Positions 10,283-59,922 of a DNA stretch of 64,000 nucleotides are shown here, one piece after another. The notes beneath the pieces were generated by a model, which worked only from the letters and a program-made list of their open reading frames with translations, did no database searches and was not told the DNA's origin. Position 1 is the first letter of the stretch; every line of letters starts with the position of its first letter. The position numbers and the translations under genes are program-made. This stretch comes from Thermoplasmata archaeon (GTDB lineage Archaea; Thermoplasmatota; Thermoplasmata; Lutacidiplasmatales; UBA184): positions 17,138 through 81,137 of the forward strand of contig JAKIWG010000001.1 of assembly GCA_022750155.1 (NCBI GenBank). The letters are read 5' to 3'.

Positions 10283-10355
10283 GCGGTTGTGGTCTAGCGG
10301 TCTAGGACGGTAGCTTCCCAAGCTACCTACTCGGGTTCAAATCCCGACAACCGCA
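10283..10355 (+). tRNA. tRNA-Gly (anticodon CCC)
   Basis: Manual cloverleaf: acceptor GCGGTTG/CAACCGC, D arm GTCT-AGCGGTCTA-GGAC, anticodon arm GTAGC-TTCCCAA-GCTAC, T arm TCGGG-TTCAAAT-CCCGA, discriminator A. Confidence 0.9.
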
Positions 10356-10357
10356 CT
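10342..10357 (+). repeat. attL core: 16-bp direct repeat TCCCGACAACCGCACT (3' end of tRNA-Gly)
   Basis: An exact second copy lies at 59907..59922. Confidence 0.8.
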
Positions 10358-10398: not shown

Positions 10399-11886
10399 AT
10401 GGCGAGGCGGAGAACCCCTCCGGACGACTCGTTCACCGACGTCCACTTCGTTCGGACCTACATCGGACACCGATTTGAGCAGCTGAACTCCGATGGTCCG
10501 GTGGGGGAGGAGAGCCGCCTCGGGCGAGCCGAACGCGACGCCATCCTGGAGTTCGTCAAGGAGCGCCAGGGTACGGTCGGGGAGCTCCGGGTCAGGACCT
10601 ACCTCGCTTGGCTTCCCCTTGCGTGCGCTCGACTTGGGGGCCAGTTCCTCGATCCCGGTCGCGAAGCCCCGGCCAGATTCAACGAGGTGTTTCCCACCAC
10701 CTCTTACGCCAGGGCGTCCCGTACTACGGTCGCTCAGTGTCTCGCCTCGTTCTGGCGTTGGCGGTTCGCGCGGATGGGGAAGGAGTACCCCTCCTGGCTA
10801 CGAATCAAGTTCGAGAAATGGAAACCGGTCAGCGGCGCCTCGGACATGCTCACTCGGGAGGACGTAGCCTCGATCGTCGAGCACGCGCAGAACTTCAGAG
10901 ACCGGGCATGGATCTGGACGCTCTTCAATTCCGGATGCCGCCCCGGGGAGATCTATCAACTCCGCGTGGGCGACGTGGTGCCCCATGACGAAGGGTACAT
11001 CGAATTGCGTGTGAACCGCGAGAAAGGCTCGGCTCCCGAACCTGCCCCGATCTACGAGGATGCCGTTCCGGCCCTTCTCGCCTGGCTGAACGCGCATCCG
11101 AGGCGCGAGGACCCCAAAGCCCCCCTTTGGGTCGACTTAGGGGGGAAACGGGGCGGGAAGGCGGCCACGTATCGAGCGATGTACAAGGCGCTCGAGAGTG
11201 CGGCACGACGATCGAAGATCGCCAAGCCGGTGACCGCCTATGCGCTCCGCCGGTCTCGCTTGACGATCCTGGCAAAGGACCCAGCGGTCTCGACCTCTAT
11301 TCTCGAGAAGGTCGCGGGTTGGGTCCCCGGCAGCAATGTTGCGCGACACTATGTCCACCTCAGCGGGAAAGACGTCATCGGAGCGTTAAATGCTCGATAC
11401 GGAGTGAAGACGGTCGGGTCCGGTGGGCGGACCGAAGTCCCACGGACTCCCTCCAAATGTGGGCGATGCAAGACGATCAATCCGGCGGGGGCATCATTCT
11501 GCTCGACCTGCGGCGGACCACTATCGCTTCCTGCGGTCAAGCAGATTGAAGAGGCGAGGGGCGCCGAGGAACGGCTCGCAGAACTCTTGAATCGGCCGGA
11601 AGCAGTCGAATTCCTGGCCAAGCTTCTGGCTGAGAACGGTGGGGACGCCCGGGTTCGTCATTCGGGAGGATCGGGCAGCAAGAGTGCAGTGGCCGAGAGC
11701 GGTGTCCCGGGTCCCGAGACCCATTCCCCAGGGGCACGGTCCCCTTCACTGCAACGGGTGGTTTCCCTAGCAGAGGCCGAGAGGCTCATCGGGTCGGGTT
11801 ACGAATTCGTGGCACCCTTGGGTTCGGATCGGGCCATACTCCGCTCCCCAGGTGGCCGAGCAGGAGACGGGGACAATACGACGTAG
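10399..11886 (+). CDS. tyrosine recombinase / integrase with C-terminal zinc-ribbon
   Basis: 495 aa. Catalytic-domain motifs CRPGEIYQLRVGDV (Arg I), YALRRSRLTILA (box II Arg) and NVARHYVHLS (Tyr region). Zinc ribbon CGRCKTINPAGASFCSTCG. Confidence 0.85.
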   Translation: MARRRTPPDDSFTDVHFVRTYIGHRFEQLNSDGPVGEESRLGRAERDAILEFVKERQGTVGELRVRTYLAWLPLACARLGGQFLDPGREAPARFNEVFPTTSYARASRTTVAQCLASFWRWRFARMGKEYPSWLRIKFEKWKPVSGASDMLTREDVASIVEHAQNFRDRAWIWTLFNSGCRPGEIYQLRVGDVVPHDEGYIELRVNREKGSAPEPAPIYEDAVPALLAWLNAHPRREDPKAPLWVDLGGKRGGKAATYRAMYKALESAARRSKIAKPVTAYALRRSRLTILAKDPAVSTSILEKVAGWVPGSNVARHYVHLSGKDVIGALNARYGVKTVGSGGRTEVPRTPSKCGRCKTINPAGASFCSTCGGPLSLPAVKQIEEARGAEERLAELLNRPEAVEFLAKLLAENGGDARVRHSGGSGSKSAVAESGVPGPETHSPGARSPSLQRVVSLAEAERLIGSGYEFVAPLGSDRAILRSPGGRAGDGDNTT

Positions 11887-12535: not shown

Positions 12536-13558
12536 ATGAATCCAGTTGAGATCCTGACTGAACTAGTCGAAAGACGGGACCTGCCACATGAGATCGCGCG
12601 TGATCTAATGGACCAAATCACCGAGGGGAAGGAAACCGCTCCTCAGATCGCAGCCATTCTAACTGCGCTGAGAATGAAAGGAGAGACCGCGGAAGAGCTT
12701 GCGGCCTTCGCGAGCGTGATGCGATTGAAGTCGTCTCACATCTCCCCCAAGGTGAGCGGGATTCTTGTCGACACCTGTGGGACAGGAGCGGCCCCGTTGC
12801 GCACGATCAACATATCGACGATAAGCGCCTTTGTTGTGGCCGCCGCCGGGGTGCCGGTGGCGAAACATGGGAACCGGTCGGTCACCAGTATCTGCGGAAG
12901 CGCCGATCTGGTCGAGGCGCTTGGAGCCAGAATCACTTCGACTCCCGCGGAGGTCCAGAGCGTGATTGAATCCGTCGGCATCGGGTTTCTCTTCGCCCCC
13001 TCCTTTCACCCTGCGATGAAGTACGCCGTTGCCCCGCGGAGGGAGATGGGCATCCGCACTGTCTTCAACATGATCGGACCTCTCACGAACCCTTCGGGAG
13101 CCCAAGCTCAGCTGCTCGGCGTGTATTCGCCCGACGTGATAGACCGAATGGCGGACGCACTAGGTCGGCTCGGCACCGGCCACTCGATGGTGGTGTATGG
13201 AGAGGGCGGTCTCGATGAACTCTCGACGATTGGGCCCTCACAGATATGCGAGGTGGAGGGCCACTCAGTGACTCGGCGGTACACTGTGACCCCTGAGGAC
13301 TTCGGATTCGCAGTGGCATCACCTGAGGATCTCACCGGCACAGCGCCCTCCGCAAGCGCTCGAATAACGAGGGAGATCCTGGGGGGGGAGCGAGGACCTA
13401 TGCGCGATGTGGTTGTACTCAATTCCGCCGCTGCCATCTACCTCGGAGGCAAGTCCGGGAGCATCGGCGATGCCGTTCCTCACGCCATCGAGAGCATAGA
13501 TTCCGGACGCGCTCTGGAGAAGCTCGATCAGTTTATCGCGGCGACCCAGCGAGCCTGA
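12536..13558 (+). CDS. anthranilate phosphoribosyltransferase-family protein (TrpD-like, divergent PRPP loop)
   Basis: Start set at ATG 12536 (MNPVEILTELV...). Family motifs VPVAKHGNRSVTS, CGSADLVEALG and GGLDELS are present. The canonical GTGGDG loop reads GTGAAP. Confidence 0.8.
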   Translation: MNPVEILTELVERRDLPHEIARDLMDQITEGKETAPQIAAILTALRMKGETAEELAAFASVMRLKSSHISPKVSGILVDTCGTGAAPLRTINISTISAFVVAAAGVPVAKHGNRSVTSICGSADLVEALGARITSTPAEVQSVIESVGIGFLFAPSFHPAMKYAVAPRREMGIRTVFNMIGPLTNPSGAQAQLLGVYSPDVIDRMADALGRLGTGHSMVVYGEGGLDELSTIGPSQICEVEGHSVTRRYTVTPEDFGFAVASPEDLTGTAPSASARITREILGGERGPMRDVVVLNSAAAIYLGGKSGSIGDAVPHAIESIDSGRALEKLDQFIAATQRA

Positions 13559-13561
13559 GCC

Positions 13562-14611
13562 GTGACGCCAGGCGCGCTCGCCGCGGAGCTCACGCCGCCC
13601 ATCCGGCAGATTCTGGATACGTTTCGGGACTATGTTGTGGTTTTGGATGCCGAGCGCAACATCCTGTTCGTAAATTCACGTTTCGAAGAAAAACGAGTTC
13701 TACCGGATCGCGACAAAATCGTGAACGAGCCTTTCTTCGGAGCAGTCGACTCATTCGCCGCCTTTCGAGATGAGGAATCGTTTCGGACGGCGTTCGATTT
13801 AGCGCTCGAACAGCGGAAGGAGCAGTTCGTACCGTTCTTGGGTCACGAGAGCAAGAGTGGAGAAAAGCACTACGATTTCACCATCGCCCCGATCTTCTCA
13901 AGCAAGGACCTCATCGGGTATGTATTGATCTTCCAAAGTCTGACGAAACTGCTGGACGAGATGTCCGACAATCTCGAGGTGGTCACCGCGATGGCTCACA
14001 CGCTCAAAAACGTCGTAAACAACATCGCCACTGAGATCGCCCATTTCCGGCAGGCGAGGGACGATGCGGTGCTCGACACCGTGTTCATCGAACTCCATCG
14101 GATCGAGAAGCTCGTCGAGAACATCGACCGACTGGGCCAGAGGCGCGCGCCGACCAAGACACGGTTCCTCCTCAGCACGCTCGTGTCGAACCTGAGGAGT
14201 CACTACGCGTCCTCCTTCAGACGGGAAATCCAAGCCGACATCGATGCCCAGCTGACCCTAAATGCTGACGAGGGCCAGATCGACGCGGTGCTAACCAATC
14301 TCATCGACAATGCATTGGAGGCCTCCCAGCCGGGGGACAAGGTGAACGTTCAGGGAACGACCGCCGGTGGCTTGGCGATAATCACCATCTCCAATTCCGG
14401 CTGTCTGGTCGAGGAGTCAATTCTTGCTAGGCTCAATGCGGGTGAACCATTCGTATCGACGAAGTCCATGCGGGGGAAGGGCGCGGGGCTCGGGTACTAC
14501 GTCTCTAAGCGGATAGTGGAGGGCCTCTACGGAGGTAAGTTGATCATTTCCAACGACGTGGAGAACACTGCGGTCATCGTAACGCTCGAGCTTCCCCTCG
14601 ACAGGGCTTGA
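13562..14611 (+). CDS. cytoplasmic PAS-domain sensor histidine kinase
   Basis: GTG start 3 nt after the trpD-like stop and no TM segment. PAS-like N-terminus, H-box MAHTLKNVVNNI, N-box LTNLIDNALEA and G2 box GKGAGLGYYVSKRIVE. Confidence 0.8.
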   Translation: MTPGALAAELTPPIRQILDTFRDYVVVLDAERNILFVNSRFEEKRVLPDRDKIVNEPFFGAVDSFAAFRDEESFRTAFDLALEQRKEQFVPFLGHESKSGEKHYDFTIAPIFSSKDLIGYVLIFQSLTKLLDEMSDNLEVVTAMAHTLKNVVNNIATEIAHFRQARDDAVLDTVFIELHRIEKLVENIDRLGQRRAPTKTRFLLSTLVSNLRSHYASSFRREIQADIDAQLTLNADEGQIDAVLTNLIDNALEASQPGDKVNVQGTTAGGLAIITISNSGCLVEESILARLNAGEPFVSTKSMRGKGAGLGYYVSKRIVEGLYGGKLIISNDVENTAVIVTLELPLDRA

Positions 14612-14614
14612 ACA

Positions 14615-16240
14615 TTGATTGGCCTCAAATTCCTACTGGTCGACGACGAGGATGACTTTTCGGATCATCTCGGGCCTCTACTCCGGGGATTCGGACTCGA
14701 GGGCTTTAGTCGAGTAACGAACGCCCAGTCCGCAGTCCGTGCGATCGAGCAGGAACAACCGGACGTGGTCCTCCTGAACTGGCACATCCTCGAGAACGAG
14801 ACGTCAACCGGGACGGCCAGCTTTCGACGCGATTATTCCGAGTCCGTTCTCCGGTTCGCCCTGGATTTCAGGGCCAAACATTCCATCGAGATGCGGGTAG
14901 GCCTCATATCTGCAGAACCCAAGCCCGAATCGGGTGCTCCCGGTTCCCGACCTCCATTGAGGGTGACAGACATCTCGGCGATCTACGGCGAGACGGACTT
15001 CTTCTTAGATAAGGGAACAGGACCTAGCTCCGTCTATCAGAGATTGGAGACATCCGACGACCAGTTCAAGAAATTCATCAGCGCCGAGGTGCGCTATAAT
15101 CCGGCCCTGGTCGTGAACTTCCGGGGGAAGCTGGCATCCAGCGTCGGGGTCGAACGGCTCCTGATGCGCCTTCTCCACGAGTTTGATTCGGCCGATGTCT
15201 TCCCGATTTCTTCGCGTGGAATGAGCGGGGCCGGAGTACTCCGTGTCGTTGCGTTTAGGGGAGGGGAACCCGCGAAAAACTTTCTTCTGAAGTACCACGG
15301 CGACTCGGTCAAGGTGAAACGAGAGCTTGACAACTACAGGAACAAGGTGTACGACGTTCTCCCAGCCGGGTCGTACTCCATCTACGACGAGCGACTCGGC
15401 ATGCGTTCGGATCGAGGGATCTCTGGATTCCTAAGCTCCTTCTTGGGCGAAGACTCTGCCCAGGTGAAACCCCTCAGCGACTACTGTGCGAGCGGCCGGG
15501 GAACTCCGGCCAAGACCGTGAAGCTTGCTCTGGACTACATGGAGCCGTGGTCGCGGGAGCTGGAGAATCCGCCTATTCGGCCCCGGATGTTCCAGGACCT
15601 CTACTTTCCAATCAATTTCGTCACCGGCAGCCAACTCTCCACGGCGTTTGACAATTCTCCGCTCGCCGCGGAGCTCACTCCGCTGTCGAGCATGGGTGGC
15701 GGCGGGCCCAAAATCAATGATCCGAGTCAACTCTTTGCGAGACTGGGGGACCTTCGCGGCACCGTCACGTGCCCCACGAGATTGTGCCACGGGGATCTCA
15801 ATTGCGAAAACGTCATGGTCAATTTTGCGACCGGGATCCCGTTCCTGATCGACTTTGCGGGAGTTCGGATGATGCCCAGGTATTGGGATCACATCGAGCT
15901 CGAATCAACATTGAAGCACCGCTTCATGAACGGGACTCCTGCCGACGCTGTCGAGCTCGAGCGAGTCATGTTGGAAGAGCCGTACTTCAAGACTCCACCT
16001 CCCTCGAATTCGGGCAAACGGGCCCTCACGCCTCTGTTGGCATCCCTCTGTCAGACGATCCGTCACCACGCCCTCGGGGACCGGGCTGTCTACGCCGCGC
16101 ACTGCGAGTATGTCTTCGGTCTCGTCTACTACACTCTTATCTATGCAAAGTACGACTCGCGGAAACCCGAGGAAACACAGTCTCTGATTCGCGCCCTGGC
16201 CTCCGCAACGTCCCTGGTGGATTGGCTCGAAGCGCAATAG
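14615..16240 (+). CDS. receiver-like domain fused to protein-kinase-like (APH/ChoK fold) domain
   Basis: TTG start 3 nt after the HK stop. REC-like FLLVDDEDD...PDVVLLNWHI, with Asn where the phospho-acceptor Asp is expected. Kinase-fold motifs GMSGAGVLRV, LLKY, CHGDLNCENVMV and LIDFAG. Confidence 0.75.
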   Translation: MIGLKFLLVDDEDDFSDHLGPLLRGFGLEGFSRVTNAQSAVRAIEQEQPDVVLLNWHILENETSTGTASFRRDYSESVLRFALDFRAKHSIEMRVGLISAEPKPESGAPGSRPPLRVTDISAIYGETDFFLDKGTGPSSVYQRLETSDDQFKKFISAEVRYNPALVVNFRGKLASSVGVERLLMRLLHEFDSADVFPISSRGMSGAGVLRVVAFRGGEPAKNFLLKYHGDSVKVKRELDNYRNKVYDVLPAGSYSIYDERLGMRSDRGISGFLSSFLGEDSAQVKPLSDYCASGRGTPAKTVKLALDYMEPWSRELENPPIRPRMFQDLYFPINFVTGSQLSTAFDNSPLAAELTPLSSMGGGGPKINDPSQLFARLGDLRGTVTCPTRLCHGDLNCENVMVNFATGIPFLIDFAGVRMMPRYWDHIELESTLKHRFMNGTPADAVELERVMLEEPYFKTPPPSNSGKRALTPLLASLCQTIRHHALGDRAVYAAHCEYVFGLVYYTLIYAKYDSRKPEETQSLIRALASATSLVDWLEAQ

Positions 16241-16259
16241 GCCACCGATCTCGGGCTCC

Positions 16260-16934
16260 TCAGCCAAATGCACCCCCGCCAACCACCTCGCCCAGGGCTA
16301 GGTGAGAGGTGACGTTGAGGGAAACCAGGCGTACTCCCTCCGGTTCTATGGCAATGGTCGTGATGCTCGCAGATTTCGTGTCGTGAGGAGCATACCTGTC
16401 GTAATCGAACTCGTTGCCGAGGGTGGCGATGTTGATAAGCATGTTCAGTGAAGAGCGAGTCAGGATGGCGACGATCGCTGGGGTGGGTGTTCGCATCCAG
16501 TCGGACCACACTGCTCTGACTCGTTCCTCGAAGTGGTGAATGTCCTCCCCCCCCGGTAGGGCGAGCCGGTCGACACGGAGATTACCCGCTCTCCACGCCT
16601 CCAAACGAGCGGCCGCCCCGGGGTCTGCGGCCGCTGCCTGAGCCCGCGATAGCCCCGCGAGTAGCCCGAGAGAAATTCCGCGCAAGCGCTCGTCTAGGAC
16701 AGTCTCAACCTTGAGCGCTGAGTAAAGATACTCAAGCGTCTCCAACACTTGGGGGACTCGGTGGCCATAGACCTCGAGCCGCCGCATCGCACTCTGGTAG
16801 GGCCTGAGGTATCGAGCAAGCCCCTCGCACTGCCGGATGCCGGTCGGAGTAAGTGAGGTGCCTCCGCCCCCGTGCCGATCCTCAAGATTCTTCTGTGCCT
16901 CGGGATGCCTAACCAAAAGGATCTCTCTCACCAT
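16260..16934 (-). CDS. histidine-phosphatase superfamily (PGAM-like) protein, tentative
   Basis: N-terminal LLVRHPEAQKN resembles the RHGE(T/S)xxN motif, and LPGGEDIHHFEERV resembles the GGES...R region. Convergent with the kinase operon. Confidence 0.5.
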   Translation of the reverse strand: MVREILLVRHPEAQKNLEDRHGGGGTSLTPTGIRQCEGLARYLRPYQSAMRRLEVYGHRVPQVLETLEYLYSALKVETVLDERLRGISLGLLAGLSRAQAAAADPGAAARLEAWRAGNLRVDRLALPGGEDIHHFEERVRAVWSDWMRTPTPAIVAILTRSSLNMLINIATLGNEFDYDRYAPHDTKSASITTIAIEPEGVRLVSLNVTSHLALGEVVGGGAFG

Positions 16935-17376: not shown

Positions 17377-17964
17377 CTAGGCGCGAATCCGCGTGTGCCT
17401 CTTACGCCATCGCCCCCAGGCATACTCTACCTCGCTCACCTTCAGGGGATGGCGACGAGCCTCGGCCAAGAGGGCCCGAGCTGAAGCCTCCGTTATCGGG
17501 GTCGCTGGAAGTAAGAAGGGACCTCCCCAAATGATTGCTGCTCGAGCGACGCTCGAAGTCACACCCGTCGTGAATACCGAGACCCGCAGGCGTGGATCGT
17601 CCCATGCCACGTGGCGCGCTCCCCTGCGGAGGGTATCGATAGAGATTTGCGAGCGGCCGACGCACACCGCTGCAGCTCGGCTCCCCTCGAACCAGTAGAA
17701 AAGCCATCCGGCGGCGACCGCCTCGATCGGAGTGAGAGCGAGTCCAGCGTCCCAGAGGGGGTTTCGGACCCACCACTCGGACTCCCCCCGAAGGATGTAC
17801 AAGAACAACAGCGAAACAAGGACGACCACGAAACCAAGCCACGCTTCGATGAACACGAGACCCCATCGTTCATTCCAATCCCTCCGGATTTCGAGGGAGA
17901 CCGGAGCCGAGAGGTCATTCGCCGGAGGAGTCGACGGCCGGCTCGAGGCTGGATAAACCGGCAT
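17377..17964 (-). CDS. hypothetical membrane protein (2 TM + soluble C-terminal domain)
   Basis: Start set at the internal ATG (MPVYPASS...). TM segments are WGLVFIEAWLGFVVVLVSLLFLYIL and ALTPIEAVAAGWLFYWF. The upstream 75 codons of the track ORF are R/P-rich. Confidence 0.5.
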   Translation of the reverse strand: MPVYPASSRPSTPPANDLSAPVSLEIRRDWNERWGLVFIEAWLGFVVVLVSLLFLYILRGESEWWVRNPLWDAGLALTPIEAVAAGWLFYWFEGSRAAAVCVGRSQISIDTLRRGARHVAWDDPRLRVSVFTTGVTSSVARAAIIWGGPFLLPATPITEASARALLAEARRHPLKVSEVEYAWGRWRKRHTRIRA

Positions 17965-18193
17965 CGCGTGGCCAACCAAAGCTTTCAATCGCGTAAAACT
18001 CAGGCTGGCCCAGCGTGGGGTGGTGGGAGGGTTCGGCCGAGGGTCGGATGCTCGAGTCCGGGCGAGCCGTCGTCTGGGTTGGGTCCGCTGACTGCGCACC
18101 CGATTGCCGGCAACGGGTCGAGCCGTGCGGGGCCTTTTCGGATCTGAACGAGTCCATCCGGGTGGAGCGGGACTCCCAAGAGCCACCAACTGA

Positions 18194-19288
18194 TCAGGTC
18201 TGAGGAATCGCCCGATTTCGGATGAAGAGCATCGACTCCTTGGGCTCCGTCATCGGGGTCTTGGAGCGCTTCCGGATCGGGCGTTGAGCGATGACTTGGA
18301 CCTTCCGCACCCGATCCTCGGCAGCGTGGCAGTACTTCTCGCTCTGGTCGATATGGATGAAATGACGCCCGTTCGCTTTCGCTACGGCTGCCACCGTACC
18401 AGTCCCCCCAAACGGATCCATGATTGTGTTCCCGCGATAGGTGAAGAATAGGAGGAGCTGACGAATTAGTTGCTCAGGGAACGTCGCTGGGTGCCCTGCG
18501 ACCCTTCGGGTGTCGGGCGGTATCTCCCAGACCCCGTCGGACCAATCGCGGAACTCCTCCGGCGAGATATCGATAGTCGAGGGATCGCCTTCGAGCTTCC
18601 AGCTCTGCTTGTGGAAGACTTCGACGTACTCCCAAGACGGGATCACATGTGGGTGGCGGGGGCTCTTCCAGCTTCCCCAGGCCGTTCGCGGCGCGCTCAT
18701 GTTCTGCTTCGCCCAGAGGATTTCCGCGCGATGCGTGAACTTGGCGGCACGGATGTCTCGAGATAGATCGTGGTGAAGCGGCACGAACTCGGCGATCCCT
18801 GTGGGAGCGACTTCAAGGGCGAGCCGCCCGCCCCGCTTGAGAACACGGAAGCATTCCTTCCACACCTCGCTGAGCCATGCACGGTATTCCGAGTACTGTC
18901 GCTTGTCGTCGTAATCGGAGTACTCTATTCCGACGTTGTAGGGCGGGGAGGTGACCACCATGTGCACCGAACTGCCCGGGACCCTACGCAGCTCGTCGAG
19001 CACGTCCGCGCGGACAATTCGGTCGAGCGGATACGGCTTCGACGGCTCCTCGACCTTCGGCGGGGGTGATCGCGCGGGGCGCAGGATCAAAGCATCGTCT
19101 TCGATACGCGCCGTCAGGCGTTCTCCCACATCCCAGGAGAGCTCCTCCACCTGACCTTTCGGGAGGATAGCGTAGAAGGAGCCGTAGTCGGGACGCTCCA
19201 TCGCCGAGCCACTCTTCAGCCGGGTCTTCCAGCTGAGACTGACCGGCTGCTCGCCGGCGACGTAGGGCTTCGCGGATTCCTCCTCCAT
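18194..19288 (-). CDS. DNA methyltransferase (N4/N6, PF01555-like) with N-terminal AbrB/SpoVT-like domain
   Basis: MVVTSPPYN and MDPFGGTGT motifs. N-terminal segment FYAILPKGQVEELSWDVGERLTARIEDDALILRP matches the swapped-hairpin AbrB/MazE pattern. Confidence 0.85.
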   Translation of the reverse strand: MEEESAKPYVAGEQPVSLSWKTRLKSGSAMERPDYGSFYAILPKGQVEELSWDVGERLTARIEDDALILRPARSPPPKVEEPSKPYPLDRIVRADVLDELRRVPGSSVHMVVTSPPYNVGIEYSDYDDKRQYSEYRAWLSEVWKECFRVLKRGGRLALEVAPTGIAEFVPLHHDLSRDIRAAKFTHRAEILWAKQNMSAPRTAWGSWKSPRHPHVIPSWEYVEVFHKQSWKLEGDPSTIDISPEEFRDWSDGVWEIPPDTRRVAGHPATFPEQLIRQLLLFFTYRGNTIMDPFGGTGTVAAVAKANGRHFIHIDQSEKYCHAAEDRVRKVQVIAQRPIRKRSKTPMTEPKESMLFIRNRAIPQT

Positions 19289-19370: not shown

Positions 19371-20309
19371 TCAGAGTTTGCCCGTCACGAGTGCTTCGTC
19401 GAGCAAGTCGAGGAGCATCATCAGGCACCGATCGCAGAGACGTCCGGCATCAATCCCGAAGTACCCGCCGACGCGCTCGGTCTCCCTATCCCTGGACGCC
19501 CGCGAGAAGAACTCTAGCCGCTTGCGAGTCGGCCTCCATGTTCGGAGAGACCGCAGGGAGGCGAGTCGCAGTGCGAACGTGATCCTATCCTTCTCGGAGA
19601 GCTGCTCCGTGTGGAACTCGGGTGCGCGACGCCGGATGATCCGTTCCGCCAAGGCGACGTCCTTCATTTCGAGAACTAGATCGACAGTGGGTGACCGACG
19701 GACTTTGCTGCCGAGAATGTCGATCGCCGCGCGGAGGAGATCTCGGACCTCTTCCCGATAGACTAGGGCCAGTTGGGCCACGATCAGCAGCCCCACCCAC
19801 CACGAGCCTGCCCTCCGGTAGACTATCACAGTGTCCGGGGGGAGCCGCGCCTCCGGGAAGAGCGCCAGGAGTCGCTTCTGGAGCACCTCAGCTTCTTTGT
19901 CGCTGACATTCACCTCCACCCGAGGCGTGCTGCCCTCCTCGTACAGCCGCGCCCTAATCTCCCGGGCGTCGTGGAACAGCTCGTCCTCTCGACCTGCGTA
20001 GCGCTCGAAAACCTGCCGCGTGAGACGACTCGCGTGGGCGAGGCCGGCCTGGTCACCCTTCTTCAGCGTGAAGAAGTTCCCGAAGCGCTTCGAAATTGCC
20101 CCGGGAGACCGGCCAAGGAGATCCGCGAGCTCGATGACCCAGGGTCTCGTAGAGTCATAATCCTGGACTTGGGGAGGGCAGGCCGCGAGCGTCACGATCA
20201 ACTCGTAGTCCTCCCAGGGCTCGCCGTCCCTGCTGCCCCGCCCGAGCAGGGCTGCGAACCGATCCTCTCCCTGCCTCTTCAATCGCTTCACAGCCATCGG
20301 TTGATTCAC
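19371..20309 (-). CDS. hypothetical protein (upstream of the methyltransferase, same strand)
   Basis: 312-aa ORF with protein-like composition. No motif recognised. Confidence 0.55.
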   Translation of the reverse strand: MNQPMAVKRLKRQGEDRFAALLGRGSRDGEPWEDYELIVTLAACPPQVQDYDSTRPWVIELADLLGRSPGAISKRFGNFFTLKKGDQAGLAHASRLTRQVFERYAGREDELFHDAREIRARLYEEGSTPRVEVNVSDKEAEVLQKRLLALFPEARLPPDTVIVYRRAGSWWVGLLIVAQLALVYREEVRDLLRAAIDILGSKVRRSPTVDLVLEMKDVALAERIIRRRAPEFHTEQLSEKDRITFALRLASLRSLRTWRPTRKRLEFFSRASRDRETERVGGYFGIDAGRLCDRCLMMLLDLLDEALVTGKL

Positions 20310-22410: not shown

Positions 22411-22980
22411 TCACGGGGGTGTAGACGAGATGGAGCGCTTCGTCGCCTCGGCTCGACAGAACTGTCGCAGGTGGTCGCTGAACCCTTCCGCGAACGGGTT
22501 TGCCGTAAGATAGAGCTCGTAAATGTCGCGCGCCGTCTTGTCGAGTACGAAAGCCCCGTAATTTCCATGCACCATTCGGTTCCGGTCGTTCCCTATGTCC
22601 AGAAACGCCTGGATGGCCTGACCAAGCTGGGGGTTGGCTTTAATCCGAGTCCGCATGTAGCCGGCGAACTCCGCGCCGAAGAGACCAAAAAACTTGGAGG
22701 CGTTGTTGCCGTCCCAATCAAAGTAGGTGTGGAACTGGCGATTGACACCCTTGTTTCGTACGAAGCTGACCAAGGCACTGGAACTGTTAGACAGCTCGGA
22801 ACTCACTGCGAGAATGCCTTCGGTGATCAGGAACTCGAACCAGCTTGCCGCGGAAAGTAGGAGGGCCTTACTGTAGAGATCCTCAACGCTGCTTCGCAAG
22901 GAAATCTGCGTCACGTCCCCCAAGGCTTGGACGGCGGATTGAAGGTCCGCATAGACACGGTCCACAGGTGTACCGGCCAC
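22411..22980 (-). CDS. HEPN-domain protein (RiboL-PSP/Abi-like), putative RNase
   Basis: 189 aa, all-helical composition. C-terminal R-N-x-x-x-H motif in DIGNDRNRMVHGNYG (HEPN Rx4-6H signature). 11 nt downstream of the DUF262 gene. Confidence 0.6.
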   Translation of the reverse strand: MAGTPVDRVYADLQSAVQALGDVTQISLRSSVEDLYSKALLLSAASWFEFLITEGILAVSSELSNSSSALVSFVRNKGVNRQFHTYFDWDGNNASKFFGLFGAEFAGYMRTRIKANPQLGQAIQAFLDIGNDRNRMVHGNYGAFVLDKTARDIYELYLTANPFAEGFSDHLRQFCRAEATKRSISSTPP

Positions 22981-22991
22981 GGGAAGCCTCC

Positions 22992-24185
22992 TCAGCCGAG
23001 CATGATCCTCTCCGCAAGCTCGAGTCGCTTCCTCACGTTAATCAAGGAGGTTGTGCCACCGTAGGAGGCCGCGCTGAATTCGTTATCGCGCAGGAGCCGC
23101 CCGACCCGAGCCGGGTCGATCTTCGCGACCTCTGTATTCTGTGACGCGAATGCGCTCTTGCACAACACGGCGAAGCATGCCTCGAAGAGGCCGATCCCGA
23201 ACCGATGGGTTTCCGGATTGAAGAAGACGTCCTCCGGTAAAGACTTCGTTCTCGCAAGGAATGCTTCAAACAACCGCTTCAGGTACTCATTCTTCTCCGG
23301 CGTGTTCACTCCGGATTTCTTGGAGAAGCTGTTTAGAAACCTAATCATGGAAGGCTTGTAATTCTCTCCGTCAATCAAGACTGCGAAAGCTCGAAGGAGG
23401 ATCTCCACGTCCTTCAAGTGAAGATCGGGGCTGGTGCTGCCCAGCAGTCGTCTCCACCTAGGCTCCAGATTGAGCCGAGAGAGTGTTTCGTAAAACGCCG
23501 ACTGGAACATGCAGGTACGAATCTCCTGCGGGGTGAGGTTCACGCCGCCAGTGTTCAATCGACTGAAGATCTCGTAAATGGCGGAATCGTCACGCGACTC
23601 CTTGTTCTGCCTAATTATTACGACCCTGACGGGGCGTAACTTGAATTGATTTTGATACTGGTCCAAGGTGGCATAGGTTAGCCCCTGGAACCGGCTCTCA
23701 GTGACCTGGAAGCGGGTTGGAAGCTTGAGCTTGAAGTCAGCGAAGTAGTCATCATCGTCGAGAATCTTCTGGGGAATCTTTGACTTCTCCTCAAAGATAT
23801 CCCGCAGCTCGACTCGCTTCTCCTTGAGCGGAAACCTCCCCTTCATGAAGTAGTAGATTGACATGAGTCGTTGCTGACCGTCGATAACCTGGAAGACGTT
23901 TCGAGCCTTCTCGAAGAGGAAGACCTGCGGTACAGGCAGGCCAAGGATCAGAGACTCGATGAGCTTGGATGCGCGAGGCTGATCCCAGATGAAGTTGCGC
24001 TGAAACGCAGGGATCGTAACCGCCCCCGATTCGATGAAATCGAATATGGTCCCGATGTTGAAGTCGTTCGGAGAAGACGTCAGATCGAACTCGTCGATGT
24101 CGAACCCTTCCTCATCCTCCGCGTAGTCCTCAAACCACGGGGTCGGGACTTCCGGTGTCGATGGTCCTTTCGTCGGATTCGCCAT
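22992..24185 (-). CDS. DUF262 (ParB-like nuclease/NTPase, GmrSD N-terminal-type) protein
   Basis: IPAFQRNFIWDQPRASKLIESLILGLPVPQVFLF...VIDGQQRLMSIYYF is the DUF262 signature. Start set at ATG 24185 (MANPTKG); the track ORF extends to 24287. No DUF1524/HNH motif seen in the C-terminus. Confidence 0.85.
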   Translation of the reverse strand: MANPTKGPSTPEVPTPWFEDYAEDEEGFDIDEFDLTSSPNDFNIGTIFDFIESGAVTIPAFQRNFIWDQPRASKLIESLILGLPVPQVFLFEKARNVFQVIDGQQRLMSIYYFMKGRFPLKEKRVELRDIFEEKSKIPQKILDDDDYFADFKLKLPTRFQVTESRFQGLTYATLDQYQNQFKLRPVRVVIIRQNKESRDDSAIYEIFSRLNTGGVNLTPQEIRTCMFQSAFYETLSRLNLEPRWRRLLGSTSPDLHLKDVEILLRAFAVLIDGENYKPSMIRFLNSFSKKSGVNTPEKNEYLKRLFEAFLARTKSLPEDVFFNPETHRFGIGLFEACFAVLCKSAFASQNTEVAKIDPARVGRLLRDNEFSAASYGGTTSLINVRKRLELAERIMLG

Positions 24186-24810
24186 GGTGGTTCTGAGCTG
24201 GCATCCCGTCCCAGAATATAATCCGGGGGGCAGAGGGCCGTCGAGCCGCGGGATTACGCGCTCTTCCACCTCAGCTCGCGGGCCCATCGGTCAGAGCAGA
24301 GACTACTGATCGAAATTGACGCATGAGTCCATCGTCCGCATAGATCATCGCCGGCGGGGCGACTATGGGTCGAACGGCATGCGACGAAATCGGAACACCG
24401 CGACGGGGAGTGCAGGGATTGGATCATTCGGTGCTTGGCCGCTTTACCTCACTAAAGTGTCCCTGGACTCGTTGACCTAGGTGACGCCGCTTCCTCCCGC
24501 CGCACGAGTCGACTGCTGGCCGGGCCATCGGCGTCAACCAACTGACCGACGGGGCCTACAACACCCCGGCGTGCCAATGGTTCCCTGAGTGTGGAAGGCC
24601 ACGTCCTGGAAGCGGGAACGGTCCCGAGGAGCCGGCCGTCAAGTCAGCACTTCCGGCACACCACCAAGGGTCCCCTCATACGGCACGAGGGTGACCGAAA
24701 GGGCCTACTTCGGTCTCGGCCCCCCTCAGGTATTCCCGCTCGAGTGGCCTCCGCGTTGGGGAGGGGGAGTTCGTTCCCACTGGTTCATCTCCAGTGCAGG
24801 GAAACCATCG

Positions 24811-41052: not shown

Positions 41053-41676
41053 GTGGATCGGAGGCTGCTCCGGGATTTGCATTACATCGCATCAATGGCG
41101 GACCTCCCGTCGATCCTGCAACGCGGACTGCTCTCGCATAACCAGGCGGCCGCACTTCGCCCCCATGCTATTTCCGACCCAGCAGTTCAGCTTCGAAGGT
41201 CCAGAGTCAGGGTCCCGGGCGGCCTTTGGCTCCACGATTACGTCAACCTCTACTTTGATAGCCACAACCCCATGCTCTCTAAAATTCGCCACATGAACCG
41301 GGACCTGGTCGTCCTGGAAGTCTCGAAGGTTGTCGTGGACTTGCCAGATGTCGTCATCGCCGACCGAAACGCCGCGAAGGAGATGGTCCGTTTCGGGACC
41401 TCCCCCCAGGGCCTTGAAATCATCGACGGGGGAATCGTCTACAAGGAGTTCTGGAAGGACCCCCTAGGAGACCCTTTAGAGGATGAGCGGCGTGACGGGA
41501 TTAAGTGCTCTGAAGTGCTGACTCCCTCGCCCCTTCTACCGAGGTTCCTGCGGGGGACTGGAATCGTCTGCAGTGAGGACGCGAAGGCCGCAATCGAAGT
41601 GATAGCACCCTCCCTCCGGCTCCGCGTAGGTTCGAGGCATTTCTTCTGGGGAGGGACGGCAGGGCCAAGGCCATGA
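41053..41676 (+). CDS. darT: DarT-like ssDNA ADP-ribosyltransferase toxin (DUF4433)
   Basis: N-terminal LHYIASMADLPSILQRGLLSHN and C-terminal KCSEVLTP...IVC match the DUF4433 pattern (YHITH..NL.SIL..GL; AE.LV). GTG start. Overlaps the macro-domain gene by 4 nt. Confidence 0.8.
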   Translation: MDRRLLRDLHYIASMADLPSILQRGLLSHNQAAALRPHAISDPAVQLRRSRVRVPGGLWLHDYVNLYFDSHNPMLSKIRHMNRDLVVLEVSKVVVDLPDVVIADRNAAKEMVRFGTSPQGLEIIDGGIVYKEFWKDPLGDPLEDERRDGIKCSEVLTPSPLLPRFLRGTGIVCSEDAKAAIEVIAPSLRLRVGSRHFFWGGTAGPRP

Positions 41677-42788
41677 TTCGGTCAAAGGTTGGGGACATCC
41701 TCGACTCGAGGATGCAGACGCTAACGAACACGGTAAACTGTGTCGGGATCATGGGCAAGGGAATCGCCCTCGATTTCAAGAAACGATTCCCCGAAATGTT
41801 CGAGGAATACGTCGGACGGTGTCGCACGGGCCAAGTAAAGCTGGGAGAGCCCTACCTGTACAAGGGCTACGGCAAGCCTTGGATCCTGAACTTCCCCACG
41901 AAGGATCATTGGCGGTCGATGACTAGACTCGCCGACATCGTCACGGGACTGGAGTACTTGGCTGCTCACTACAGGGAATGGGGCATCACCTCTTTGGCGG
42001 TTCCGCCACTCGGTTGTGGTAACGGTCAGCTAGACTGGAGGGTGGTTGGACCAACCCTCTATCGGCACCTATCTGAACTCCCGATTCCGGTAGAGATGTT
42101 CGCGCCCCGAGGAACTCCCCCCGAGCTCCTCTCAGAAGCGTTCCTGGCCCAGGAGAATGGTCCGAAGAGGACGAAGACAAGCGAGGTAATGCCTCACTAC
42201 ATCAATCCGACTTGGGTTCCTTTGGTGGCTGTTGTAGACCAAGTCACTAAGGAGAGATACCACCGGCCGATCGGAAGAATAGCGCTGCAGAAGATGGCCT
42301 ACCTTCTCACAGCGGTCGGGGTTCCGACTGGATTCGAGTTCGTCCGCGGGCCATTCGGACCCTTCTCCCCGGACCTCAAGGAGGCGCTCGGTCGGATGAT
42401 TAACAACGGGTTGTTGGTGGAGGAGCGCGACGGCCAGAGGTTCGTCGTCACTCCGGGTTCAACGTACGAAGACGCGCGGAAAGTCTATGCGGGCGAGCTC
42501 GAGAAGTGGAAGAAGGAGATCTCGAAGTTGACCGACCTTATGCTTCGGCTGACAACTCATGGGGCGGAAATCACGGCGACCGTGTTTTACTCGGCCCGAT
42601 CCCTTGCGGAGAGTCACGGTCGGACTCCAACCGAGCAGGCCGTCCTCGAGGAAGTCATGAAGTGGAAGCGGCGGCGACTTCCCACTTGGGATCGGAAGGA
42701 GGTTGCTCTCGTCATCCGGGATCTGAATGCGCTTCGGTTCGTCAATCTGGAGCATTCCGACGAATTGCTGCCCGTCCCGGCCGAGTAG
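41673..42788 (+). CDS. darG: DarG-like antitoxin: macrodomain + C-terminal DUF4065/Panacea-like domain
   Basis: Macro motifs NTVNCVGIMGKGIALDFKKRFP and SLAVPPLGCGNGQLDW. The C-terminal segment IALQKMAYLLTAVGVPTGFEFVRGPFGPFSPDL resembles SocA/DUF4065. Confidence 0.8.
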   Translation: MIRSKVGDILDSRMQTLTNTVNCVGIMGKGIALDFKKRFPEMFEEYVGRCRTGQVKLGEPYLYKGYGKPWILNFPTKDHWRSMTRLADIVTGLEYLAAHYREWGITSLAVPPLGCGNGQLDWRVVGPTLYRHLSELPIPVEMFAPRGTPPELLSEAFLAQENGPKRTKTSEVMPHYINPTWVPLVAVVDQVTKERYHRPIGRIALQKMAYLLTAVGVPTGFEFVRGPFGPFSPDLKEALGRMINNGLLVEERDGQRFVVTPGSTYEDARKVYAGELEKWKKEISKLTDLMLRLTTHGAEITATVFYSARSLAESHGRTPTEQAVLEEVMKWKRRRLPTWDRKEVALVIRDLNALRFVNLEHSDELLPVPAE

Positions 42789-59906: not shown

Positions 59907-59922
59907 TCCCGACAACCGCACT
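59907..59922 (+). repeat. attR core: 16-bp direct repeat TCCCGACAACCGCACT
   Basis: Exact copy of 10342..10357 (the tRNA-Gly 3' end). Lies in an intergenic gap before the flanking genes. Confidence 0.8.

What the first reader, a model, noticed from the sequence alone, without database searches (positions are those of the whole stretch)
12536..16934. Three-gene operon TrpD-like / soluble PAS histidine kinase / pseudo-receiver-kinase-fold protein, with a convergent PGAM-like phosphatase
The three genes are separated by only 3 nt each (13558/13562 and 14611/14615), so they are almost certainly co-translated. No other trp genes are present. A lone anthranilate-PRT-fold (nucleoside-phosphorylase-II-like) enzyme is wired to a cytoplasmic sensor kinase. 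The third protein joins a receiver-like domain to an aminoglycoside/protein-kinase-like domain (HGDLNCEN, DFAG). I do not recognise this combination as a described system. By analogy with defensive two-component systems (Detocs: HK + receiver + nucleoside-phosphorylase effector), it could be a signalling-controlled nucleotide- or PRPP-depleting module, or a small-molecule-modifying module. Its location in a defence-rich island fits that idea.
Basis: inference. Interest (0 to 1): 0.7.

Follow-up and report, generated by a model that had tools for sequence, protein, structure and literature searches.

The report
Mobile TrpD–sensor kinase–pseudo-receiver kinase cassette
A tryptophan-pathway enzyme (TrpD), a soluble sensor histidine kinase and a kinase with a phosphorylation-dead receiver domain form a rare three-gene cassette, conserved in three unrelated mobile regions, that is probably a new signalling-controlled conflict or defence module, although its function is untested.

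Summary
Three same-strand genes with 3-nt spacers encode:
- a near-canonical anthranilate phosphoribosyltransferase (TrpD);
- a PAS histidine kinase (HK);
- a receiver-like domain fused to a TCAD9/APH-fold kinase.

The same trio, and only these three genes, recurs in two other very divergent contigs (TrpD 51–60%, HK 32–33%, kinase about 25% identity). It is therefore a functional unit. The convergent PGAM-like gene is not conserved and is not part of it.

In the window the trio is the first cargo of a 49.6-kb tRNA-Gly-integrated element that also carries DarTG, an NsnA-like/HEPN pair and a methyltransferase.

The third protein belongs to a small family of receiver–TCAD9 kinases. This family has no PADLOC v2 model and no description in the literature I could search. 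Its members always follow a soluble GAF or PAS histidine kinase and are often accompanied by REC-TIR, REC-SIR2 or CHAT effectors. In all three trios the receiver's phospho-acceptor Asp is Asn.

The TrpD keeps every PRPP, Mg and anthranilate ligand except the Asp of GTGGD. That loss also occurs in genuine trp-operon TrpDs.

Best reading (about 0.4): a Detocs-like but non-homologous conflict module whose effector drains PRPP. No experiment supports this, and small-molecule or metabolic roles remain open.

The parts
12536..13558 (+). Gene 1: near-canonical anthranilate phosphoribosyltransferase (TrpD), 340 aa. The signature motif is GTGAA (12779-12793) instead of GTGGD. NIST, KHGNR, HP...RRE and DE are all intact.
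   Evidence: Motif roles are taken from PMC9835598 and PMC5537072.
13562..14611 (+). Gene 2: soluble PAS_4 sensor histidine kinase, 349 aa. The H-box His146 lies at 13997-13999. The N-box is present, the G1 box is the 'NxG' variant seen in ThkA, and the G2 box is GKGAGLG.
14615..16240 (+). Gene 3: aspartate-less receiver (residues about 1-150; Asn55 at 14777-14779) fused to a TCAD9/APH-fold kinase (residues about 176-541). K226, E237, H392-G-D394, N399 and D413 are invariant in the family.
16260..16934 (-). Convergent His_Phos_1 (PGAM-like) gene. It is a neighbour only and is not conserved with the trio.
   Evidence: tblastn finds no homologue in L001 or L010. The genes at that position differ between loci.
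10283..10356 (+). Context: tRNA-Gly(CCC), the integration target. Its 3' end holds the left 16-bp direct repeat (10342-10357).
10399..11886 (+). Context: tyrosine integrase with a C-terminal zinc ribbon, immediately upstream of the trio.
59907..59922 (+). Context: right 16-bp direct repeat (TCCCGACAACCGCACT) closing the roughly 49.6-kb integrated element. GC content returns from about 0.60 to 0.70 shortly after it.

Best explanation
The trio is a self-contained, horizontally mobile signalling-plus-enzyme cassette. It is a derived branch of an apparently undescribed family of two-component modules in which a soluble GAF or PAS histidine kinase is followed by a receiver-fused TCAD9 kinase with a choline/aminoglycoside-kinase fold.

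Proposed working:
1. The PAS histidine kinase senses an intracellular cue, most plausibly one linked to infection.
2. The partner's receiver has Asn in place of the phospho-acceptor Asp. The signal therefore cannot pass by canonical His-to-Asp transfer at that site. It would pass instead through a kinase/pseudo-receiver complex that switches the TCAD9 kinase.
3. The kinase then controls the catalytically intact TrpD, or acts alongside it.
4. Without TrpF, the TrpD runs PRPP + anthranilate -> PR-anthranilate + PPi. PR-anthranilate decays spontaneously back to anthranilate + ribose-5-phosphate. The net effect is PRPP drain, which starves nucleotide and NAD synthesis.

Shown: the gene unit and its conservation; the domain identities; Asn at the acceptor site; intact catalytic motifs in all three proteins; the mobile and defence-island setting; and the association of the family with TIR, SIR2 and CHAT proteins.

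Inferred: the cue, the kinase's substrate, the direction of control, PRPP depletion, and any antiviral role.
For: **Conserved unit**
- TrpD + PAS histidine kinase + receiver-TCAD9 kinase occur in the same order in L001 and L010.
- Identities to the window are 51/32/25% and 60/33/25%.
- No other flank is conserved.

**Asn at the receiver acceptor**
- It is present in all three trios, against Asp in every other family member examined.
- The acidic pair and the Ser/Thr of the receiver are retained.

**The histidine kinase looks active**
- The His, N-box and G2 box are invariant.
- The NxG form of the G1 box is shared with the solved kinase ThkA, 3a0r.

**Third protein**
- The catalytic residues of the kinase domain are invariant.
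- The AF2 model has pLDDT 76. The best PDB matches are choline kinase, APH(2''), MTR kinase and NahK.

**Contexts of other family members**
- GAF histidine kinase + REC proteins + CHAT (L002).
- GAF histidine kinase + REC-TIR (L003-5).
- GAF histidine kinase + REC-SIR2 + MBL (L006-8).
- STAND-like ATPase + GAF histidine kinase (L021).
- The SIR2 and TIR parts weakly match defence models.

**TrpD**
- All PRPP, Mg and anthranilate ligands are kept.
- PR-anthranilate is unstable and regenerates anthranilate (PMC3485032).

**Setting**
- In the window the trio is the first cargo after the integrase of a tRNA-Gly element that carries DarTG, an NsnA-like/HEPN pair and a methyltransferase.
- L010 is flanked by IS elements, and L001 lies near a PycTM gene.
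- No trpE, trpG, trpC or trpA genes are nearby in any of the three loci.
Against: - There is no experimental evidence for defence.
- None of the three proteins matches a PADLOC model. Neighbours in L001 and L010 gave no convincing PADLOC hits.
- The TrpD is so close to housekeeping TrpDs that an ordinary metabolic role is possible.
- Its nearest relatives, the low-GC lineage in L011-13, L019 and L020, are stand-alone genes in housekeeping-looking contexts without the two kinases.
- Only three trio loci are known.
- How a histidine kinase signals to an Asp-less receiver is unknown, and no canonical receiver is encoded in the window.
- The trio histidine kinases are ThkA/NtrB-like. They are not orthologous to the GAF kinases of the wider family, so the family link rests on the third protein and on shared architecture.
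- One relative sits next to an arylamine N-acetyltransferase and a TetR gene. This hints at small-molecule metabolism rather than immunity.
Confidence: 0.4

Rival explanations
1. The cassette is a small-molecule response or modification module. The PAS histidine kinase senses an aromatic amine or acid, or another xenobiotic or metabolite. The APH/choline-kinase-fold enzyme phosphorylates a small molecule. The TrpD phosphoribosylates anthranilate or an analogue, for detoxification, salvage or synthesis of a specialised metabolite.
For: - Foldseek places the kinase domain with small-molecule kinases.
- A homologous histidine kinase + REC-TCAD9 pair is followed by an arylamine N-acetyltransferase and a TetR gene (L022/L023).
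- The anthranilate site of the TrpD is fully conserved.
- TrpD is known to accept non-native amine substrates (PMC3485032).
Against: - Other family members carry REC-TIR, REC-SIR2 and CHAT proteins, which are conflict-type effectors and not detoxification enzymes.
- The cassette is rare, fast-evolving and located in mobile or defence islands.
- No transporter or other pathway genes are conserved with it.
Confidence: 0.2
2. The cassette is an accessory, regulated tryptophan-pathway gene. An island-borne extra TrpD does its normal job, and its activity is tuned post-translationally by the adjacent kinases in response to cellular state.
For: - It scores well above the TIGR01245 trpD equivalog cut-off.
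- It is 50-60% identical to TrpDs that sit in trpEGDC operons.
- Loss of the GTGGD Asp also occurs in those operon TrpDs.
- All ligands are conserved.
Against: - No other trp gene lies nearby in any of the three loci.
- It sits inside an integrated element next to the integrase, or among IS elements.
- Linkage to a rapidly diverging pseudo-receiver kinase, whose relatives accompany TIR, SIR2 and CHAT effectors, is hard to explain by pathway regulation.
- The clade is distinct from operon TrpDs, though support is only moderate (68% NJ bootstrap).
Confidence: 0.15
3. The TrpD generates a signal rather than acting as an effector. It makes a phosphoribosylated small molecule that the TCAD9 kinase phosphorylates further, or that the PAS domain senses. 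The true output is the kinase or a target encoded elsewhere.
For: - The receiver-TCAD9 kinase and the histidine kinase are the constant parts of the wider family, while the third component varies.
- Structural neighbours of the kinase include ribose- and sugar-1-kinases: MTR kinase and NahK.
Against: - No evidence bears on this directly.
- In the wider family the variable components are classical effectors (TIR, SIR2, CHAT), which puts the TrpD in the effector slot.
Confidence: 0.1
4. The adjacency is fortuitous: three unrelated genes happen to be packed together in an island.
For: Only three loci are known so far.
Against: - The same order and tight spacing occur in three loci whose proteins share only 25-60% identity.
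- The flanks of those loci are unrelated.
- The Asn substitution in the receiver is lineage-specific and shared by all three loci.
Confidence: 0.02

Closest known systems
Detocs (DtcA histidine kinase, DtcB buffer receiver, DtcC receiver-PNP effector; Rousset et al. 2023, bioRxiv 10.1101/2023.01.24.525353)
   Same: - An intracellular sensor histidine kinase is wired to an enzyme that would deplete a nucleotide-related metabolite.
- Effectors are modular and swappable.
- The wider receiver-TCAD9 family carries extra stand-alone or effector-fused receivers, much like DtcB and DtcC.
- Both occur in defence islands.
   Different: - There is no sequence match to the PADLOC models.
- The sensor is a PAS domain, not TPR repeats.
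- The effector candidate is a class III/IV phosphoribosyltransferase (TrpD), not a PNP-family ATP nucleosidase, and it is not fused to a receiver.
- The only receiver lacks the phospho-acceptor Asp that Detocs needs (DtcC D58A abolishes defence).
- There is an additional APH-fold kinase.
TCAD9 (PF19974) kinase domains of vWA-MoxR-VMAP ternary conflict systems (Kaur et al. 2020, PMC7159879)
   Same: - The kinase domain passes the Pfam TCAD9 gathering threshold (45.6 against 40 bits; 88.9 bits in L010).
- It is an APH-superfamily, catalytically intact kinase found in conflict-system contexts.
   Different: - No vWA, MoxR or VMAP genes occur in any of the trio loci.
- The partner is a histidine kinase. 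That paper reports no histidine kinase domains among its vWA-associated effectors.
Anthranilate phosphoribosyltransferase TrpD (TIGR01245; structures 9ucw, 1zvw, 1zyk)
   Same: - The fold and length are the same.
- It is up to 60% identical to TrpDs in the protein database.
- NIST, KHGNR, H...RR and DE ligands are all present.
- It scores 383.7 bits against a cut-off of 199.
   Different: - The signature GTGGD is GTGAA. The Asp is lost throughout the nine-member clade, although this also happens in some operon TrpDs.
- It is never linked to trp genes.
- It is carried on mobile DNA and is tightly packed (3-nt spacers) with two kinase genes downstream.
ThkA/TrrA-type soluble PAS histidine kinases (Thermotoga maritima, PDB 3a0r)
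   Same: - It is the best PDB match (E 8e-14).
- The PAS-DHp-CA architecture is the same.
- The 'NxG' variant of the G1 box is the same.
   Different: ThkA phosphorylates a canonical receiver (TrrA). Here the only adjacent receiver has Asn at the acceptor site.
Aspartate-less receiver (ALR) domains, e.g. RitR of Streptococcus pneumoniae, which has Asn at the acceptor position (my own knowledge, not checked here)
   Same: - It has a receiver fold with Asn replacing the phospho-acceptor Asp.
- It is presumably regulated by means other than His-Asp transfer.
   Different: - Here the ALR is fused to a kinase output domain.
- Here the ALR gene lies 3 nt downstream of a seemingly active histidine kinase gene.

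Membership tests
Anthranilate phosphoribosyltransferase (TrpD, TIGR01245) | Score above the curated equivalog cut-off, with the two-domain Glycos_trans_3N + Glycos_transf_3 architecture | tested here: met
   383.7 bits against a cut-off of 199. PF02885 and PF00591 are both above threshold.
Anthranilate phosphoribosyltransferase (TrpD, TIGR01245) | GTGGD signature loop | tested here: not met
   The window has GTGAA, L001 has GTGGG and L010 has GTGGA. However, trp-operon TrpDs P0128 (GTGGA) and P0111 (GTGAG) also lack the Asp, so this feature is not strictly defining.
Anthranilate phosphoribosyltransferase (TrpD, TIGR01245) | PRPP, Mg and anthranilate ligands. In M. tuberculosis numbering: N117, S119, T120, K135, N138, R139, S142/S143, H183, R193, D251, E252. 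| tested here: met
   The alignment to 2bpq/1zvw shows all of them conserved, with S142 replaced by Thr. Residue roles are from PMC9835598.
Anthranilate phosphoribosyltransferase (TrpD, TIGR01245) | Genomic linkage with other trp genes, or a role in tryptophan synthesis | tested here: not met
   No TrpE, TrpG, TrpC or TrpA homologues occur in the window, L001 or L010. The rest of the host genome is not available, and activity is not testable here.
Detocs | Homology to DtcA, DtcB or DtcC | tested here: not met
   PADLOC-DB v2 gives no hit for proteins 1 and 2. Protein 3 gives only a receiver-level hit to PDC-M60B at E 0.006.
Detocs | Effector fused to a receiver with a phospho-acceptor Asp | tested here: not met
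   The TrpD has no receiver domain. The only receiver has Asn55 at the acceptor position.
Classical two-component system | Histidine kinase with H-box His and N, G1 and G2 boxes | tested here: met
   His146, the N-box and GxGxG are invariant in the three trio histidine kinases. The G1 box is NxG, as in ThkA.
Classical two-component system | Cognate response regulator with a phospho-acceptor Asp | tested here: not met
   Asn is present in all three trios. No other receiver was detected in the window with a family-specific HMM or in the Pfam scans.
vWA-MoxR-VMAP ternary conflict systems (source of TCAD9) | TCAD9 domain | tested here: met
   PF19974 scores 45.6 bits (cut-off 40) in the window and 88.9 bits in L010.
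vWA-MoxR-VMAP ternary conflict systems (source of TCAD9) | Presence of vWA, MoxR AAA+ and VMAP genes | tested here: not met
   None appear among the genes called around the trio in L001 and L010, or among the window ORFs scanned.
Choline/aminoglycoside kinase (CAK/APH) superfamily | Kinase fold with HxDxxxxN and a downstream Mg-binding Asp | tested here: met
   HGDLNCEN and IDFAG are present. K226 and E237 are invariant. Foldseek top hits are choline kinase and APH(2'') with probability 1.00. The substrate is not testable here.

The most novel reading that the evidence does not exclude
An archaeal antiviral system of a new type. A PAS histidine kinase and an aspartate-less-receiver kinase switch on a recruited tryptophan-pathway enzyme (TrpD). 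The TrpD, cycling on catalytic anthranilate, drains PRPP and so blocks nucleotide and NAD synthesis. To my knowledge this would be the first PRPP-depletion immune effector. It would be one branch of a wider, undescribed family of histidine kinase + receiver-TCAD9-kinase defence modules that also deploy TIR, SIR2 and CHAT effectors.
Probability: 0.25. Interest if true: 0.8.

Novelty: new variant of a known kind. Interest (0 to 1): 0.6.

Why it matters
If the defence reading is right, three things follow:
- PRPP would join the metabolites that immune systems deplete (NAD, ATP, dNTPs).
- A barely modified housekeeping enzyme could be shown to serve as an effector.
- An archaeal, Detocs-like signalling logic would be revealed that works without a phospho-acceptor Asp.

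Whatever the trio does, the survey exposes a coherent family: a soluble GAF or PAS histidine kinase followed by a receiver-fused TCAD9 kinase, often with REC-TIR, REC-SIR2 or CHAT proteins. This family is absent from PADLOC v2 and from the literature I could search, and it is directly testable.

If instead the trio is a small-molecule or metabolic module, it is still a rare example of a histidine kinase paired with an aspartate-less receiver fused to a kinase output.

Tried and rejected
1. **G1-box Asp-to-Asn in the histidine kinase as a sign of inactivation.** Rejected: the best solved homologue, ThkA (3a0r/3a0t), has the same 'NSG' box.
2. **Loss of the GTGGD Asp as evidence of a new TrpD activity.** Rejected: P0128 and P0111 lack it and sit in trpE-G-D-C operons. 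Only three strongly canonical positions distinguish all nine clade members: M29T, D86 lost, V208A.
3. **The PGAM-like gene as a fourth component.** Rejected: it is not conserved.
4. **The genome-contig scan with alignment A2.** It chose receiver-derived patterns and returned one irrelevant locus, L009. Alignment A1 was too diverse to use.
5. **A clade-specific DNA pattern**, validated on the known loci.
   - It found only three short low-GC contigs in the JGI metagenomes, none with a histidine kinase downstream.
   - It found nothing in the viral contigs.
6. **Searches of plasmid records.**
   - The kinase protein gave no match.
   - The whole-region DNA matched only a haloarchaeal trpD.
7. 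**A profile of the three trio kinases against 5.8 billion proteins.** It found only canonical Asp-bearing relatives.
   - The L010 kinase is hidden behind a 44-aa cluster representative.
   - The representative-based search may therefore under-count trio members.
8. **A PHROGs scan of ten unknown island ORFs.** No hits, so there is no evidence that the element is a provirus.
9. **PADLOC on neighbours in L001 and L010.** Nothing convincing.
10. **Conserved small ORFs or flanks around the trio.** None found.
11. **Burroughs et al. 2015 (NAR).** I wanted it for possible earlier predictions of receiver-effector systems (my recollection; not confirmed as the Detocs preprint's cited source), but it is not held in the library.


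Full report
**1.

The window has four ORFs at the stated coordinates: 12536-13558(+), 13562-14611(+), 14615-16240(+) and, convergent, 16260-16934(-). The junctions read TGA-GCC-GTG and TGA-ACA-TTG, so both spacers are 3 nt.

Domain scans give:
- Protein 1: Glycos_trans_3N + Glycos_transf_3, and 383.7 bits against the TIGR01245 trpD equivalog (cut-off 199).
- Protein 2: PAS_4 + HATPase_c.
- Protein 3: sub-threshold Response_reg (17.8 bits), TCAD9 (45.6 bits, cut-off 40) and APH.
- Protein 4: His_Phos_1.

The ATG at 12536, rather than the upstream GTG at 12404, fits the homologue alignments. NCBI names the source a Thermoplasmata archaeon metagenome-assembled genome.

**2. Setting**

- tRNA-Gly(CCC) lies at 10283-10356, and a tyrosine integrase follows at 10399-11886.
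- The last 15 bases of the tRNA plus the next base (TCCCGACAACCGCACT, 10342-10357) recur once, at 59907-59922. No such repeat appeared in 100 shuffles.
- GC content falls from about 0.70 to about 0.60 between these points.
- The trio is therefore the first cargo of a roughly 49.6-kb integrated element.
- The element also carries:
  - a type II methyltransferase at 18194-19288;
  - an NsnA-like GmrSD_N protein (PADLOC 196.9 bits) with a RiboL-PSP HEPN neighbour at 22411-24287;
  - DarT/DarG at 41053-42788 (DarG 288 bits);
  - a WD40-Roc GTPase and large NHL beta-propeller proteins.
- Ten unknown ORFs gave no PHROG hit, so there is no evidence that the element is a provirus.
- The flanks are ordinary chromosome: arginine deiminase, type IV pilus-type ATPases and an amino-acid kinase.

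**3. The three genes are a conserved unit**

An exhaustive phmmer search of protein 3 against 1.84 billion cluster representatives gave only 49 hits at E<=0.001. The best non-self hit, P0002, is 27% identical.

| Locus | Source | Gene order | Identity to window (TrpD / histidine kinase / kinase) |
|---|---|---|---|
| L001 | contig carrying P0002 | TrpD (338 aa), PAS-HATPase_c (351 aa), TCAD9 protein (511 aa) | 51 / 32 / 25% |
| L010 | contig carrying P0057, the closest long-contig TrpD relative | same trio | 60 / 33 / 25% |

- Nothing else is shared between the three loci by tblastx.
- The PGAM-like protein has no homologue in L001 or L010. L001 has an alpha/beta hydrolase at that position and L010 has a DUF6946 gene.
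- L010 is surrounded by IS21, rve and Mutator transposases. L001 lies about 8 kb from a PycTM gene.

**4. The third protein and its family**

*Architecture and fold*
- Seventeen relatives align over the full length as a receiver followed by a kinase. K226, E237, H392-G-D394, N399 and D413 are invariant.
- An AF2 model (pLDDT 76, pTM 0.75) shows a (beta-alpha)5 receiver and a bilobal kinase.
- Foldseek against the PDB ranks choline kinases, APH(2''), 5-methylthioribose kinase and N-acetylhexosamine kinase first. This is the small-molecule-kinase branch of the kinase fold.

*The acceptor site*
- In the family at large, beta-strand 3 of the receiver ends in 'LLD'. In all three trio proteins it ends in 'LLN'.
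- Asn55 aligns with the acceptor Asp of RR02 and YycF.
- The acidic pair (D10, D11) and Ser99 are retained.
- 'Pseudo-receiver' is therefore right, and the substitution marks the trio lineage.

*Genomic contexts of Asp-bearing relatives*

| Locus | Genes around the receiver-TCAD9 kinase |
|---|---|
| L002 | GAF histidine kinase, REC, REC-TCAD9, REC, CHAT |
| L003-L005 | GAF histidine kinase, REC, REC, REC-TCAD9, REC-TIR |
| L006-L008 | GAF histidine kinase, REC-SIR2, REC-TCAD9, MBL/Apyc1-like |
| L021 | STAND-like ATPase, GAF histidine kinase, REC-TCAD9 |
| L022/L023 | GAF histidine kinase, REC-TCAD9, arylamine N-acetyltransferase, TetR |

- In every context examined, a soluble sensor histidine kinase lies just upstream.
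- The SIR2 and TIR parts weakly match defence-type models. PADLOC v2 has no model for the kinase or the histidine kinase.
- I found no description of this family in the searchable literature.
- TCAD9 is mentioned only as an accessory of vWA-MoxR-VMAP systems. No components of such systems occur in the trio loci.

**5. The histidine kinase**

- The three trio histidine kinases share the H-box His146, the N-box, a G1 box of the form 'NxG', and GxGxG.
- I first suspected that the Asn in G1 meant loss of ATP binding. However, the best PDB match, ThkA of Thermotoga (3a0r, 3a0t), has the same 'NSG' box.
- The kinase is therefore most likely active.
- It belongs to a different histidine kinase subtype from the GAF kinases of the wider family, which have 'DxGxG'.
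- No canonical receiver is encoded elsewhere in the window.

**6. The TrpD**

*How canonical it is*
- It is 50-60% identical to thousands of TrpDs and matches solved TrpDs at E 6e-91.
- Against M. tuberculosis TrpD, every ligand listed in the 2023 review is conserved. This covers the PRPP pyrophosphate and 5-phosphate contacts, Mg1/Mg2 and anthranilate site 1. S142 is replaced by Thr.

*The GTGGD motif*
- The one exception is the Asp of the GTGGD 'signature': GTGAA in the window, GTGGG in L001, GTGGA in L010.
- Among the 120 best hits, 105 have GTGGD.

*The clade*
- The trio TrpDs, P0053 and a low-GC lineage (P0051, P0052, P0054, P0055, P0056) form a nine-member clade. All nine lack the Asp.
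- NJ bootstrap support is 68% for the clade and 88% for L010 plus the low-GC lineage.

*Two controls that temper this*
- Asp-less TrpDs P0128 and P0111 lie inside trpE-G-D-C operons. The loss is therefore compatible with normal function.
- The low-GC members are not next to the kinases. They sit beside diphthamide synthase, YjbQ, a MiaB-like enzyme or small unknown ORFs.

*Conclusion*
- Only three strongly canonical positions separate all nine clade members from the rest.
- The enzyme is therefore predicted to be a competent PRPP:anthranilate phosphoribosyltransferase, not a nucleoside phosphorylase.
- No TrpE, TrpG, TrpC or TrpA homologue is present in the window, L001 or L010.

**7. How it most likely works**

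*Shown*
- It is a mobile three-gene unit.
- It combines an apparently active PAS histidine kinase, an aspartate-less receiver fused to an apparently active small-molecule-type kinase, and an apparently active TrpD.
- Relatives of the kinase sit in histidine kinase operons with NADase and protease effectors.

*Inferred*
- The histidine kinase senses a cue.
- It signals to the kinase through a complex with the pseudo-receiver rather than by His-to-Asp transfer.
- The kinase controls, or cooperates with, the TrpD.
- The TrpD occupies the effector slot that TIR, SIR2 or CHAT fill elsewhere.

*A chemically grounded effector activity*
- PR-anthranilate is unstable and breaks down to ribose-5-phosphate and anthranilate (PMC3485032).
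- An unbalanced TrpD would therefore hydrolyse PRPP catalytically with respect to anthranilate, starving nucleotide and NAD synthesis.

I put about 0.4 on this conflict/effector reading as a whole, and less on the PRPP-drain detail (0.25 in the novel case).

*Rivals*
- A small-molecule sensing or modification module (0.2). It is supported by the kinase fold, the N-acetyltransferase neighbour in L022 and the known promiscuity of TrpD.
- A regulated accessory TrpD (0.15).
- The TrpD as a signal generator (0.1).
- Chance adjacency (about 0.02, effectively refuted).

**8. Comparison with known systems**

- It works like Detocs in logic: an intracellular histidine kinase controls a metabolite-depleting enzyme.
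- It fails every Detocs membership test run here: no homology, no Asp acceptor and no receiver-fused effector.
- It has a TCAD9 domain but none of the ternary-system genes.
- Its first gene meets the sequence definition of TrpD but not the genomic one.
- I therefore class it as a new variant of a known kind (a two-component-type conflict module) and not as a member of any named system.

**9. Limits**

- Only three trio loci are known.
- The representative library can hide members. The L010 kinase is represented by a 44-aa fragment.
- The taxonomy of L001 and L010 is unknown.
- The rest of the host genome was not available.
- Nothing about function has been tested.

Noticed in passing
window 10342-10357 and 59907-59922 (element 10342-59922): A roughly 49.6-kb integrated element sits in tRNA-Gly(CCC). 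It is bounded by a perfect 16-bp direct repeat and has a tyrosine integrase (with a C-terminal zinc ribbon) at 10399-11886. Its GC content is about 0.60, against about 0.70 in the flanks. Ten of its unknown ORFs gave no viral hallmark hits.
   Followed up: partly
window 41053-41676 (+) and 41673-42788 (+): A DarT/DarG toxin-antitoxin and anti-phage pair. DarT scores Pfam 102 bits. DarG has a Macro domain and scores PADLOC 288 bits. The two genes overlap by 4 nt.
   Followed up: partly
window 22411-22980 (-) and 22992-24287 (-): A RiboL-PSP HEPN protein lies next to a GmrSD_N/DUF262 protein that matches PADLOC NsnA (196.9 bits) and PD-T4-2_A. This is a likely restriction-like defence pair.
   Followed up: partly
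window 18194-19288 (-): An N6/N4 DNA methyltransferase (PADLOC MTase_II, 203 bits) with a weak N-terminal AbrB/MazE-like match. No cognate endonuclease was identified. The adjacent ORFs 17377-18189 and 19371-20309 have no family hits.
   Followed up: no
window 35043-37358 (+); 46788-48704 (+); 51374-54748 (-); 56147-59335 (-): A WD40 + Roc/Ras-like GTPase protein (771 aa) and three large NHL/YNCE beta-propeller or unknown proteins (638, 1124 and 1062 aa) occupy the distal half of the element. Their function is unknown.
   Followed up: no
L002, L003-L005, L006-L008, L021, L022-L023: These loci show a recurrent operon type that I could not find described. A soluble multi-GAF histidine kinase is followed by a receiver-fused TCAD9 kinase. 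It comes with REC-CHAT, REC-TIR, REC-SIR2 + MBL-fold, a STAND-like ATPase, or an arylamine N-acetyltransferase + TetR. It looks like a Detocs-like family of candidate defence systems and has no PADLOC v2 model.
   Followed up: partly
L011/L012/L018, L013, L019, L020 (about 32-34% GC contigs): The closest relatives of the trio TrpDs (57-58% identity, GTGGA or GTGGT) are stand-alone genes in low-GC contigs. The diphthamide synthase neighbour in L013 suggests these are archaeal. They lack both trp genes and the kinases. What a lone TrpD does there is unexplained.
   Followed up: partly
window 16260-16934 (-): The convergent His_Phos_1 protein has the N-terminal 'RHP' catalytic motif. Where the family usually has its second catalytic His ('SHG'), it appears to read 'TRSS'. 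I judged this by eye and did not align it. It matches cobC and phosphoserine-phosphatase models only below their cut-offs.
   Followed up: no
L014/L015 and L016/L017: Bona fide trpE-G-D-C operon TrpDs with GTGGA or GTGAG show that the 'signature' Asp of GTGGD is not universally conserved in functional-context TrpDs.
   Followed up: yes
cluster of L010:10101-11687: The 90% cluster holding the L010 trio kinase is represented by a 44-aa fragment from a 543-bp ENA contig. Representative-based searches can therefore miss full-length members. The same or a near-identical system also exists in a second sample.
   Followed up: no
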